DNA of 64,000 nt from Eledone cirrhosa. Its lineage: Eukaryota. Made by a program: the position numbers and the translations under genes. The notes beneath the pieces were generated by a model. The model did no database searches, was not told where the DNA came from, and saw only the letters and a list, made by a program, of their open reading frames with translations. Each line of letters opens with the position of its first letter. Position 1 is the first letter of the stretch. Positions 12,052-41,797 of this stretch are shown here, piece after piece. Where the stretch lies: the NCBI GenBank assembly GCA_964016885.1, contig OZ024742.1, positions 114,266,001-114,330,000 on the forward strand, written 5' to 3'.

Positions 12052-14178
<2,127 letters not shown>

Positions 14179-14231: not shown

Positions 14232-14261
<30 letters not shown>

Positions 14262-14262
<1 letters not shown>

Positions 14263-14318
14263 GTAAGTATGTATGTATACGTTCATACATATATGTATAC
14301 AGACGTACAGTAGCATGC

Positions 14319-14357
<39 letters not shown>

Positions 14358-14808
14358 CATATACACATATGCATACAGGTACACATACACATATGCACGC
14401 ATCAGTTTAGCCGACGTTTATTATAACGCCTGCTTTGTTCGTTTGTTTGTCAACAAATCGAACAGCCTGAATTTATGCCATACGGTGTTAAGGCAACCAC
14501 GTCACCTTTTTGTTCAACACTGACACAGGAACGATGTACTAGTTTCAAGCTTGTTAGCTATCATCAGCACCGTTTACCCATCTGCCAGATAGTTGAACGT
14601 TCCAAAGTATATACTTTCCTTATGAAAATTAACGGCTGAGCAGCTTAATTTGCATATTGAGTGAGTTAAATCGGTCAGGCATACCGAAAACGATAAGTTG
14701 AAAAAAATGAAAACGAAATTTCATTTCTCACTCTTAGTATGGCACTTACTTAAATGTAAGTATGTATGTATACGTTCATACATATATGTATACAGACGTA
14801 CAGTAGCA

Positions 14809-14848
<40 letters not shown>

Positions 14849-15010
14849 CATATACACATATGCATACGTGGTTGCCTTAACACCGTATGGCATACATTCA
14901 GGCTGTTCGATTTGTTGACAAACAAACGAACAAAGCAGGCGTTATAATAAACGTCTGCTAAACTGATGCGTGCATATGTGTATGTGTACCTGTATGCATA
15001 TGTGTATATG

Positions 15011-15046
<36 letters not shown>

Positions 15047-15636
15047 TGCTACTGTACGTCTGTATACATATATGTATGAACGTATACATACATACTTACA
15101 TTTAAGTAAGTGCCATACTAGGAGTGAGAAATGAAATTTCGTTTTCATTTTTTCAACTTATCGTTTTCGGTATGCCTGACCGATTTAACTCACTCAATAT
15201 GCAAATTAGGCTGCTCAGCCGTTAATTTTCATAAGGAAAGTATATACTTTCGAACGTTCAACTATCTGGCAGATGGGTAAACGGTGCTGATGATAGCTAA
15301 CAAGCTTGAAACTAGTACATCGTTCCTGTGTCAGTGTTGAACAAAAAGGTGACGTGGTTGCCTTAACACCGTATGGCATAAATTCAGGCTGTTCGATTTG
15401 TTGACAAACAAACGAACAAAGCAGGCGTTATAATAAACGTCGGCTAAACTGATGCGTGCATATGTGTATGTATACCTGTATGCATATGTGTATATGTATG
15501 TATATATATATATATATATATATATGCATGCTACTGTACGTCTGTATACATATATGTATGAACGTATACATACATACTTACATTTAAGTAAGTGCCATAC
15601 TAAGAGTGAGAAATGAAATTCCGTTTTCATTTTTTT

Positions 15637-28232: not shown

Positions 28233-28650
28233 TAAGTTAAACATGTACATCCACATATGTATACTGAAATACTAGTATGCATATGAATACACACACGTAT
28301 ACATATGTAGATGTACCGAGTTTTTCACTGGTCACTTTACTGTGAGTGTCCAGCTATTCTGTATGTAAACACACAGACAAACCGGTTTTTAGAGTCATAC
28401 TGGTTTTTGAGGAAACACCTTTCCTCTATTCTCCAGAAAGCCAGACAAGGAATATTGAACTAGTTTCGATGTTGTTACATCTCATCAGCAATATTTACCT
28501 ATCTTCCGGCCTCTCTAGAGAATCGTAAAAGCACATATCGTTATATGCTTTTTCTATGAAAATTAGTAGTGGGCAGACTAATTTGCATAGAGCGTGAGTA
28601 CGTACCGGTTCAACGGAGACGATAAAAACAAATAACGAAACGAAATTAAA

Positions 28651-29964: not shown

Positions 29965-30745
29965 CGCCCCACATGGCTGAATACGATAAATGTGATCTGT
30001 GTTTTTCGAATATTAATAATAATATTCGATTAGTTGGCAATTATGAAAACACCTTATTTTGTAAAACCATCTTAGTAGAATGAGTCCTTCATTCTTGGTC
30101 TTGTGTCGACATGTAAATAGAATTGGAGAGGCTAATGTTTGAACATATAGGATATTTTCTAATATATACAGTGACTGATCGGCCTGATTTTCATATTAGC
30201 AGACTGGCAGATCAGTTAGATCTACATATTAGCAGATCCACTGATCAGCCAATATTTGCATATCAGCAGACAGGCCAGTCAGTTTCCTGCATATGGATGT
30301 TCGCTGTTCATGGTTGAATGAAATAAATGCAATCTGAATTTTTTCGAATATTAATAATAATATTCGATTCGTTTGCAATTATGCATACAGCCACTTTGTT
30401 AAAGCCATGTCAGTAGAATGATCCCCTCATTATTGTATATGTGTTGGCATGTAATCAGAACTGCAGACACTAATGACTGATCAGCAAGTCTGCTAATATG
30501 CAAATCAGGCCGATCAGTCACTGTATATTTTATAAAATATCATATATTTTCTCTAGCTCTGACAGTTGGAAGATGAACAGTTAACCACACTGATGAAGGC
30601 TAATACCCTGAAACATTAGAATCTCCGGTTCTCTTTACATGCCAACACAAGAGCAAGAATGAGGGACTCATTCTACTGACATGGCCTTTTTCACAATTGT
30701 AAACGAATCGAATATTATTATTAATACACGAAGAACTCATATTAC

Positions 30746-36261: not shown

Positions 36262-37020
36262 ATATGGGAAAAAATGAAACGAAATTTCATTTCTCACTTT
36301 TAGTACGGCTGTTACTTAAATATAAATATGTATACGTACATAATAAGCTTGAAACTAGTACAGCGTTCGTTTGTCAGTGTGGAACAAATGAGCAACGATG
36401 GTTGATAGACAATGTACGGCTTAATTCGGGATGGTTGTTTACAAACACACAGAACATTTAAATAAATGTTCGTTGAATCCATACGTACATATATATATAT
36501 ATATGTGTGCATGCATGTATATATACATACTACTGTACGTCTGTATACATATGTGTGTGTACGTATACAGACTTATATTTAAGTAACAGCCGTAGTAAGA
36601 TTGAGAAATGAAATTTCGTTTCCTTTTTTCCGTTTATCGTTTTCGGTGCGCCCGGCCGATTAACTCTCTCGATATGCAAATTAGGCTGCTCAGCCGTTAA
36701 TATGCATAAGGAAAGTATATACTTTCAGACGTTAAATCATCTGGCAGGAAGGTAAACGTTGCTGACGATAGCTAATATGCTTGAAACTAGTACAGCGTTC
36801 CTTTGTCAGTGTTGAACAAATAAGCAACGATGATTGCTAGACACTGTACGGCTTAATTTGGGATATGTGTTTACAAGAACACCGAGCATTATCATAATGT
36901 TCGGTGAATCCATACGTACATATATATATATATATGCGTGTGCATGTATGTATATATATATATACATACTACTGTACGTCTGTATACATATATGTATGTA
37001 CATATACATACTTATATATA
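36262..37020 (+). mobile_element. Family A array: short inverted tip + about 1.5 tandem monomers (period 432)
   Basis: gaaactagta occurs at 36351 and 36783. The intact HHR at 36755-36799 reads aacgttg-CTGACGA-tagc..gctt-GAAAC-ta-GTA-cagcgtt. Confidence 0.8.

Positions 37021-40464: not shown

Positions 40465-41797
<1,333 letters not shown>

What the first reader, a model, noticed from the sequence alone, without database searches (positions are those of the whole stretch)
15190..15235. Octamer-containing box at conserved distance upstream of the ribozyme in two different families
Seen: family A has aatATGCAAATtaggctgctcagcc (15199, 88 nt before the CUGAUGA core). The divergent A copy has tATGCAAATtagtctgccca (28588, - strand, 100 nt). 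The otherwise dissimilar family B has aatATGCAAATcaggccgatcagtc (30498, 92 nt), plus three tandem variants at about 30185-30270. Known: ATGCAAAT is the POU/Oct site of snRNA distal elements, and newt satellite 2, an HHR tandem repeat, is transcribed from an internal snRNA-type promoter. Inference: these elements carry their own internal promoter, which ends up inside the next monomer after cleavage. An alternative is an RNA hairpin (atgcaaatta-ggctg-ct-cagcc-gt-taatatgcat).
Basis: partly seen in the sequence, partly recalled or inferred. Interest (0 to 1): 0.72.

Follow-up and report, generated by a model that had tools for sequence, protein, structure and literature searches.

The report
Ribozyme repeats carry host snRNA promoter
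Thousands of small hammerhead-ribozyme repeats in this animal genome carry, just before the ribozyme, a close match to the promoter box of the host's own U6-type small-RNA genes plus a TATA-like word, so they likely switch on their own transcription, although a review says such elements seem to have no promoter.

Summary
In detail: ATGCAAAT lies 88, 100 and 92 nt before the hammerhead core in families A, A' and B. The Oct-site reading does not. In this genome ATG(C/G)(A/T)AAT(T/G)AG sits at -76 to -78 of U6, U6atac and RNase MRP genes. It is therefore the 5' half of the host's proximal sequence element (PSE). The host's distal element is another motif, and an octamer occurs there in 1 of 20 genes. 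The repeat boxes add the YCA of the host U1/U2/U5 PSE and a TATA-like word at the Pol II-gene distance. The predicted start lies about 15 nt before the ribozyme core. Family H, found by the box alone, also has a hammerhead. In random DNA, 12 of 14 hammerheads lack the box. The box lies in imperfect hairpins, but the octamer stays fixed while the partner arm varies. Best reading: retrozymes with a captured SNAPc promoter that travels inside the cleaved, likely circular, monomer. Pol II is favoured over Pol III about 2:1. No RNA data were available, so function is inferred. Newt satellite 2 is the precedent.

The parts
15198..15220 (+). PSE-like box of family A: TATGCAAATTAGG (U6-type 5' half), then TCAG at box positions 16-19 (U1/U2/U5-type 3' half)
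   Evidence: (20.6 bits on a matrix built from five host Pol III promoters)
15240..15247 (+). TATA-like word GTATATAC, TATA starting 42 nt after the box start, inside a 16-nt palindrome
   Evidence: 15 of 15 host Pol II snRNA genes have a TATA-like word at 40-44, host Pol III genes at 46-48
15271..15272 (+). predicted transcription start (C|AG), about 30 nt after TATA; inferred, not mapped
   Evidence: host geometry; initiator context
15280..15324 (+). type I hammerhead of family A: stem I 15280-15286/15318-15324, core 15287-15293, GAAA 15308-15311, two-pair palindromic stem III, predicted cleavage after 15317; U.U at the base of stem II
   Evidence: exact 32-nt core 23,644 times in the genome
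15325..15640 (+). body of the monomer (strongly self-paired, internal TA run), ending in a hairpin and T7 run (15630-15636); the insertion ends at about 15640 in (TA)n, 38 nt before where the next box would be
   Evidence: z = -7.8
14258..14867 (-). inverted copy of family A (box 14655-14634, core 14567-14561) whose end is about 58 nt shorter: inverted repeat plus one-sided tail, as in Penelope-type insertions
28567..28589 (-). PSE-like box of family A' (TATGCAAATTAGTCTGCCCAC), followed by GCATATAA at box positions 40-47
   Evidence: 19.0 bits
28451..28495 (-). type I hammerhead of family A' (G10.1-C11.1, GUU triplet in this copy)
   Evidence: Rfam Hammerhead_HH9 36.5 bits, E 6.3e-6, below the gathering score of 52
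30497..30519 (+). PSE-like box of family B: U6-type ATGCAAAT plus ATCAGTCAC, identical to the PSE core of host U2 locus L002
30582..30632 (+). hammerhead of family B, degenerate in this copy; the family consensus has an 8-bp stem I and a GUC triplet
30170..30292 (-). four tandem ~33-bp PSE-like units of an inverted B copy (starts 30292, 30261, 30227, 30194)
36673..36799 (+). family A (subfamily A2): box, TATA-like word and hammerhead
40720..41051 (.). head-to-head pair of A2 copies (boxes 40846 on -, 40926 on +; both cores partly decayed)
41356..41482 (+). decayed A copy with ATGAAAAT box

Best explanation
The box matches the host's own snRNA proximal sequence element and likely forms, with a downstream TATA-like word, an internal promoter that SNAPc would bind, probably recruiting Pol II, to start transcription about 15 nt before the hammerhead core. 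Shown: the sequence match to the host U6/U6atac/MRP element, the U1/U2/U5-like YCA and spacing, the tandem and inverted arrangement of copies, and their stereotyped ends. Inferred: in a tandem array the transcript reads through the next monomer's promoter and hammerhead. The short-stem-III hammerheads cleave (for A probably as dimers). The cleavage-to-cleavage monomer, with the promoter near its 3' end, is circularised. A Penelope-type reverse transcriptase primes at the hairpin/T-rich site about 35 nt upstream of the promoter and copies round the circle into (TA)n sites. Each new copy then has promoter, ribozyme and body in working order. The confidence that the box is a working snRNA-type promoter for either polymerase is about 0.78; the number below is for the Pol II version.
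For: (1) Five top-ranked host Pol III promoters (three U6, U6atac, MRP) have ATG(C/G)(A/T)AAT(T/G)AG at -76 to -78, exact ATGCAAAT in 3 of 5. (2) A matrix from those five, built without any repeat, scores A 20.6, A' 19.0 and B 12.2 bits. Left-out host genes score 10.5-20.9, and 15 Pol II genes score -10 to -0.1. Three of 1.2 million background positions reach 20.6, and the sample holds three A boxes. (3) Box positions 16-18 are YCA in A, A', B, E/G and H (C17 and A18 invariant, positions 11-15 vary between families), as in host U1/U2/U5, and in 0 of 5 Pol III genes. B joins both halves at a spacing that puts the Pol II PSE about 4 nt nearer the start than the Pol III PSE. (4) A TATA-like word starts at 40-45 in A, A', B, E and H, at 40-44 in 15 of 15 Pol II genes and at 46-48 in 5 of 5 Pol III genes. 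(5) In insects the 3' half of the PSE sets the polymerase (PMC1761439). (6) Family H was picked by the box alone and has a hammerhead 99 nt on. (7) 12 of 14 hammerheads in 600 kb of random DNA lack the box, so the ribozyme fold does not need it. (8) One A' subfamily has a T5 inside the body, yet its copies still end at -34. H often has an interrupted T-run. One array has 30 listed units, which needs read-through or a circular template. (9) Newt satellite 2 uses an snRNA promoter and Pol II (as cited in PMC2220036 and PMC6765202).
Against: No RNA run was listed, so neither transcription nor a start site is shown. The 5' half matches the Pol III class; host Pol II genes lack ATGCAAAT. The host distal element is absent from all seven monomers tested (best match 3-5 mismatches of 13), and so is the host 3'-box-like word. 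The Pol III training set is only five genes. The Pol II genes were aligned on the YCAR word itself. On the Pol II core matrix only B (p 0.003) and A (p 0.009-0.016) score well; A' does not (p 0.14-0.21). E/G, D/F and I were found with octamer-containing patterns, so they say nothing independent about the octamer. The families probably share ancestry. The box and the TATA word both lie in hairpins, and one array has ATGCATAT, which perfects the hairpin at the octamer's expense. No partner reverse transcriptase was identified.
Confidence: 0.52

Rival explanations
1. Same captured promoter, but a type 3 (U6-like) Pol III promoter. The T-run about 35-50 nt before the next box is a leaky terminator, and the read-through fraction gives promoter-containing monomers.
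For: The 5' half is nearly identical to U6/U6atac/MRP and unlike the Pol II genes. A T5-T10 run lies just before the next promoter in the A, A', B and H reference monomers, and the 'long' ends of insertions fall there: 32 of 76 terminal A copies, 20 of 36 A', 9 of 27 B. Six of seven bodies have no T4. Family I (3 copies seen) has TATA at 47 and a G at 77 in two of the three, as U6 does.
Against: The TATA word is 2-6 nt closer than in any of five host Pol III genes, and YCA is the Pol II signature. T-run depletion is not significant (P 0.18-0.57 per monomer). A copies end 6-8 nt beyond the T6/T7, at a TAT microhomology with the target. A T5 inside one A' subfamily does not move its end. One B subfamily lacks the run.
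Confidence: 0.26
2. The box is a relic of an ancestral promoter or an arm of a hairpin kept for folding of the circular RNA, and the repeats are transcribed only by read-through from host promoters.
For: In most families the box can pair with a downstream arm. In a fixed register 76% of cells pair, against 24-47% for slid registers. Position 8 changes T-A to G-C in H and E2. The monomer body is strongly self-paired. A review states that retrozymes seem to lack promoters (PMC7761336).
Against: RNAalifold finds no consensus structure over 11 boxes, and covariation does not clearly exceed shuffles (29-169 of 500 reach it). The octamer C is unpaired in 7 of 10 rows yet invariant. Partners and registers differ between families while the 5' arm stays equal to the host PSE. 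Pairing alone does not explain the fixed TATA distance.
Confidence: 0.14
3. ATGCAAAT is a POU/Oct enhancer site as in vertebrate snRNA distal elements, acting on a separate core promoter further downstream.
For: It is the canonical octamer (recalled), exact in 37 of 43 distinct A copies that reach past it and 21 of 31 B copies. B has four tandem units, as enhancers may.
Against: An exact octamer lies in -400 to -100 of 1 of 20 host snRNA/MRP genes, and the host distal motif is different. Conservation extends beyond the octamer exactly as in the host proximal element (T before, G and often (T/G)AG after), and two host genes have ATGCTAAT or ATGGAAAT there. POU binding on top of SNAPc is not excluded.
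Confidence: 0.05

Closest known systems
Newt/salamander satellite 2 (Coats, Zhang & Epstein 1994; Cremisi et al. 1992; originals not held, seen only as cited in PMC2220036 and PMC6765202)
   Same: Tandem hammerhead repeat with an internal snRNA-type promoter; Pol II reported.
   Different: Here the conserved box is the host-lineage proximal element itself, with a TATA-like word and no host distal element. It occurs in at least five divergent families of one genome, apparently in two spacing classes. The newt promoter layout could not be read, so no finer comparison is made.
Metazoan non-LTR retrozymes (Cervera & de la Pena 2020, PMC7229834; review PMC7761336)
   Same: Type I hammerhead with short stem III, tandem non-coding monomers, GC under 45%, strong self-pairing, suspected Penelope partner.
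   Different: Monomers of 328-502 nt, at or above the reported range. The review says retrozymes seem to harbour no promoter; these carry a candidate one.
Schistosoma SM-alpha hammerhead SINE-like repeats (as described in PMC6765202)
   Same: Promoter precedes the hammerhead and ends up at the 3' end of the cleaved monomer; tandem copies needed.
   Different: SM-alpha uses a Pol III promoter (gene-internal A/B-box type, recalled); here it is a gene-external PSE+TATA type.
snRNA promoters of the insect type, PSEA + PSEB/TATA (PMC1761439)
   Same: Bipartite promoter; Pol II and Pol III classes differ in the 3' half of the PSE.
   Different: In this host the two classes also differ visibly in the 5' half, and the repeats combine the Pol III-class 5' half with the Pol II-class 3' half and spacing.
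Penelope-like element pLTRs (PMC4209133; bioRxiv 10.1101/2021.04.23.441226)
   Same: Hammerhead, tandem and inverted copies, one-sided tail, microsatellite targets.
   Different: No ORF; tail about 30-70 nt rather than 30-40; the PLE-like minimal hammerheads sampled here lack the box.

Membership tests
metazoan non-LTR retrozyme | type I hammerhead with conserved core | tested here: met
   Rfam HH9 below gathering score for A' only, none at gathering level; A has U.U and B A.A at the base of stem II
metazoan non-LTR retrozyme | short head-to-tail tandem repeats, GC below 45% | tested here: met
   monomers 328-502 nt, GC 0.36-0.38, an array of 30 listed units
metazoan non-LTR retrozyme | no protein-coding capacity | tested here: met
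   longest ATG ORF 50-68 aa on six doubled monomers; window ORFs are low-complexity TA-repeat readings
metazoan non-LTR retrozyme | expressed, self-cleaved and circularised RNA | not testable with these tools
   no RNA holder listed
snRNA-type (PSE/SNAPc) promoter | sequence match to the host PSE | tested here: met
   matrix from five host genes; A 20.6, A' 19.0, B 12.2 bits against 10.5-20.9 for left-out host genes
snRNA-type (PSE/SNAPc) promoter | second element (TATA/PSEB-like) at a host-like distance | tested here: met
   40-45 in A, A', B, E, H; not seen in the single G, D and F copies scored
snRNA-type (PSE/SNAPc) promoter | host distal element about 260 nt upstream of the start | tested here: not met
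   absent from 7 of 7 monomers; present with at most 2 mismatches in 9 of 20 host genes, so not universal in the host either
snRNA-type (PSE/SNAPc) promoter | SNAPc binding and a start site about 73-77 nt after the box | not testable with these tools
   needs ChIP/EMSA and 5'-end mapping
type 3 Pol III promoter (U6 class) | PSE-to-TATA distance 46-48 as in host U6/U6atac/MRP | tested here: not met
   A 42, A' 41-43, B 43-45, H 43; met only by family I (47, three copies)
type 3 Pol III promoter (U6 class) | T-run terminator after a T-run-free body | tested here: inconclusive
   run present before the next box, depletion not significant, exceptions in A', B and H
vertebrate-type octamer distal sequence element | octamer about 200-250 nt upstream in host snRNA genes | tested here: not met
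   1 of 20 host genes has an exact octamer in -400 to -100
vertebrate-type octamer distal sequence element | adjacent SPH/ZNF143 site and POU binding | not tested
   no matrix or binding test run
Penelope-mobilised non-autonomous element | inverted truncated copy with one-sided tail, microsatellite target | tested here: met
   two end classes in A, A' and B; followed by (TA)n in 54 of 76, 31 of 36 and 14 of 27 terminal copies
Penelope-mobilised non-autonomous element | shared 3' end with an autonomous PLE in the genome | not tested
   no partner element was searched

The most novel reading that the evidence does not exclude
A whole radiation of circular-RNA retroelements is self-sufficient for transcription because each RNA circle carries a hybrid, possibly extra-strong SNAPc site: the U6-type 5' half joined to the U1/U2-type 3' half. 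Within one genome the families have split into Pol II-spaced (A, A', B, E/G, H) and Pol III-spaced (I, perhaps D/F) classes. This has scattered roughly 20,000 or more snRNA-type promoters through the genome. It may be the general answer to how animal retrozymes are constitutively expressed: a lineage-specific PSE missed because PSEs differ between animal groups.
Probability: 0.33. Interest if true: 0.8.

Novelty: new variant of a known kind. Interest (0 to 1): 0.63.

Why it matters
Animal retrozymes are abundantly expressed as circular RNAs, and a 2020 review says they seem to have no promoter and rely on read-through (PMC7761336). This locus gives a base-level candidate promoter, a predicted start and two opposed polymerase predictions that one set of experiments can decide. 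It also gives a recipe for other animals: compare the repeat with that species' own U6 and U1/U2 upstream DNA. As by-products it defines this host's PSE, TATA spacing and distal element, which could help in building U6-driven guide RNA tools. It also offers natural hybrids for asking which PSE bases select Pol II or Pol III.

Tried and rejected
A DNA similarity search of the own genome with the A box+ribozyme gave nothing because common words are skipped; exact patterns were used instead. Rfam at gathering level: no hit; at E-value level one sub-threshold hammerhead among many TA-repeat/miRNA chance hits. RNA search: no RNA holder listed, which is no evidence either way. Two lays of contig runs cannot show starts or ends; they only showed that the window's boxes equal the majority letters in run X1. 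My first hammerhead scan was too strict and missed family H; it was rerun with looser stem III rules. T-run depletion as proof of Pol III: not significant. Host distal element and 3'-box-like word in the monomers: not found. Consensus RNA structure over the box: none. Not in the promoter set: 14 dispersed U6 hits and 7 of 8 U6atac loci, which have no box and look like promoterless retrocopies (inference), and U6 array units with an insertion between promoter and gene. Look-ups of earlier scan findings returned nothing. The primary newt, schistosome and Lunse papers are not held, and the supplement of PMC7229834, which may hold retrozyme sequences bearing on generality, could not be read.

Full report
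1. Observation. The three boxes are at the quoted places, 88, 100 and 92 nt before CTGANGA. The window has 13 ATGCAAAT against 6.9 +/- 2.3 in shuffles; eight belong to these repeats and five show no CTGANGA in the ~100 nt after them. The window lies in G000 (3.0 Gb, 1,796 contigs). The family A ribozyme core occurs 23,644 times exactly, 0 reversed. A 21-nt word of the B box occurs 616 times. Octamer + 75-105 nt + hammerhead core with the main A type excluded occurs 9,333 times against 6 reversed. Among A copies chosen by the ribozyme core only, 43 of 69 distinct upstream sequences reach past the box, and the other 26 are truncated or did not fit my anchor. Of the 43, 37 have the exact octamer, three ATGCATAT and three single changes. 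In B, 21 of 31 aligned copies have it (counted by eye).

2. The elements. Monomers are 328-502 nt, 36-38% GC, with no ATG ORF over 68 aa, and the A body is strongly self-paired (z -7.8). Each has a type I hammerhead. A and A' have a two-pair palindromic stem III, the kind reported to cleave as dimers (PMC4209133, passages). Rfam gives only a sub-threshold HH9 hit for A'. Copies lie in tandem arrays and head-to-head pairs in (TA)n. Their ends fall in two classes. After de-duplication by context (approximate), A has 32 long, 33 short and 11 other ends; A' 20, 15 and 1; B 9, 14 and 4. The long end lies at a hairpin and T-rich run about 35 nt before the first box unit. In head-to-head pairs such as the window's, one side is long and the other short. 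This is the inverted copy plus one-sided tail described for Penelope-like elements (bioRxiv 10.1101/2021.04.23.441226, passages). They fit the metazoan non-LTR retrozymes (PMC7229834, passages and Discussion).

3. What the box is. I fetched host U2, U6, U1, U6atac, MRP and U5 loci. The three top U6 loci, the best U6atac and the only MRP have ATG(C/G)(A/T)AAT(T/G)AG at -76 to -78, with TATA starting 46-48 nt after it. Fourteen dispersed U6 hits and seven other U6atac loci lack it and look like retrocopies, and several U6 array units have an insertion in the promoter; these were left out. Fifteen distinct U1/U2/U5 promoters lack ATGCAAAT. They have a YCAR word (mostly ATCAGT) near -57 and a TATA-like word near -31. 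Their distal element, shared with U6, is ATTA(C/T)CTCCCTT near -260 (at most 2 mismatches in 9 of 20 genes). An exact octamer lies in -400 to -100 of 1 of 20. So in this host the octamer letters are the 5' half of the proximal element. A matrix from the five Pol III genes scores A 20.6, A' 19.0 and B 12.2 bits. Left-out host genes score 10.5-20.9 and Pol II genes at most -0.1. In 1.2 million background positions 3 reach 20.6 (the sample holds three A boxes) and 25 reach 12.2.

4. Geometry. With the Pol II YCAR placed at box position 16, as B's own sequence dictates (ATGCAAAT...ATCAGTCAC, the latter identical to U2 locus L002), the Pol II PSE starts at -71 to -74. All 15 genes then have a TATA-like word at 40-44 (looser pattern than for Pol III). 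The repeats have YCA at 16-18 and a TATA-like word at 42 (A), 41-43 (A'), 43-45 (B), 43 (H) and 40 (E). In an alignment of 11 boxes the invariant columns are T-ATGCA.AT, G10, C17-A18, one T and A.ATA of the TATA word. A pyrimidine|AG lies at 72 in A and A', which gives a predicted start at window 15271. In insects the 3' half of the PSE sets the polymerase (PMC1761439, Introduction and passages), which by analogy favours Pol II. Against this: the 5' half is Pol III-class, and on a Pol II core matrix only B and A score well.

5. Independent checks. Scanning 600 kb of random genome for the box turned up family H, which proved to have a hammerhead 99 nt downstream. A pattern covering H, E/G and I has 1,392 matches, 0 reversed. 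A hammerhead-only scan of the same 600 kb gave 14 hits (0-1 in five shuffles). Two have the box; the other 12 are mostly minimal GAAATATATATA types and a long-stem-III family. The box is therefore not general to hammerheads. E/G, D/F and I were found with octamer patterns and are not independent for the octamer. The families are probably related: A and A' align at 67% over 160 nt, A and B share little beyond the box and core, and A and B share TGGCAG before stem I. A rough total of boxes is 20,000 or more (9,333 plus about half of 23,644; an estimate).

6. Hairpin rival. The box can pair with a downstream arm in most families, with different partners and registers. In the A register 76% of cells pair, above slid controls, but covariation is within reach of shuffles (29-169 of 500). 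The eight octamer pairs show one double-sided change, and the octamer C is unpaired in 7 of 10 rows. RNAalifold finds no consensus structure. In favour of structure: position 8 shows T-A versus G-C between families, and one array has ATGCATAT, which perfects its hairpin. I read this as a secondary constraint from a folded RNA.

7. Polymerase. For Pol III: the 5' half, a T5-T10 run before the next box in four families, and long ends at that run. Against: TATA is 2-6 nt too close; T4 depletion has P 0.18-0.57 per monomer; A ends lie 6-8 nt past the run at a TAT microhomology. One A' subfamily has an internal T5 without a shifted end, one B subfamily lacks the run, and H often has it interrupted. 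The T-rich hairpin is then more simply the reverse-transcriptase priming signal (inference). Family I (three copies) has TATA at 47, T|G at 77 in two of them, and a T6-T8 run just after the ribozyme, so a Pol III-spaced class may coexist.

8. Mechanism. Shown: sequence match, geometry, arrays, ends. Inferred: SNAPc binding, start site, read-through, cleavage, circularisation, and rolling-circle reverse transcription by a Penelope-type enzyme that puts the promoter back in front of the ribozyme. No RNA run was listed, and contig lays cannot show starts.

9. Known and new. Newt satellite 2 has an snRNA promoter driving Pol II and schistosome repeats a Pol III promoter. I saw this only as cited in PMC2220036 (passage) and PMC6765202 (passages); the originals are not held. 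[quoted passage not shown] Searches for hammerhead + satellite 2 + octamer + promoter, hammerhead + proximal sequence element + retrotransposon, hammerhead + tandem repeat + SNAPc and U6 promoter + proximal sequence element + mollusc returned no paper. Searches returned listings, none describing this by title or abstract start; PMC13652810 (passages) mentions SNAPc only as a gene. The library lacks most subscription papers, and one relevant supplement was unreadable. That ATGCAAAT is the POU site, and the A/B-box nature of the schistosome promoter, are recalled. Verdict: a real feature and a new variant of a known kind. The promoter is likely (about 0.78), the Oct reading unlikely, and the polymerase open with Pol II ahead about 2:1. 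Interest 0.63.

Noticed in passing
L320:1500-1640 (+), L321:1015-1155 (+), L322 (-); also L236 and L238: Hammerhead family I (and perhaps D/F) has U6-like spacing (TATA at 47 in I, core at 104-107) and a T5-T8 run right after the ribozyme. It could make a short ribozyme-only Pol III RNA, or the run may be a decayed stem extension.
   Followed up: partly
L051, L052, L063-L068, L092, L003 at -234 to -272: Host snRNA distal element ATTA(C/T)CTCCCTT shared by U1, U2 and U6 genes; not an octamer. Its binding factor is unknown to me.
   Followed up: partly
L057, L058, L060, L062, L094 (U6 array on C19): Several U6 array units have a ~190-nt insertion inside the TATA word, with a TATAAAATGTTGTTT duplication, pushing the PSE to -270; probably silenced.
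   Followed up: no
L063-L073, L001-L003, L224-L230, just after the RNA ends: A host 3'-box-like word AAAA(A/T)(T/C)CAGA follows U1, U2 and U5. Family B has a similar AAAAACTCAGA just before its short end.
   Followed up: partly
window 14130-14175 (+) and 13630-13670 (-); L115, L123, L157: Another hammerhead family (C) with a long palindromic stem III and no box, often as inverted fragments.
   Followed up: partly
L115, L123, L146, L147, L148, L161: Minimal hammerheads with GAAATATATATA and long stem II, typical of Penelope pLTRs; candidates for the autonomous partner's ends.
   Followed up: no
L117 (-) 2895 and L076 (+) 272; L146, L147, L165, L172, L186: Two further repeats carry a PSE-like 5' half (TATGCAAATGAGG; TATGCTAATTGGG) with no hammerhead seen in the next 140 nt.
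   Followed up: no
family A, window 15294 and 15307: The most abundant family has U.U (B has A.A) instead of the usual G10.1-C11.1 pair at the base of stem II; whether it cleaves is untested.
   Followed up: no
L076-L088, L096-L102: Many dispersed U6 and U6atac copies lack promoters and sit next to TA microsatellites or other repeats, one (L099) beside an inverted family B copy: likely retrocopies.
   Followed up: no
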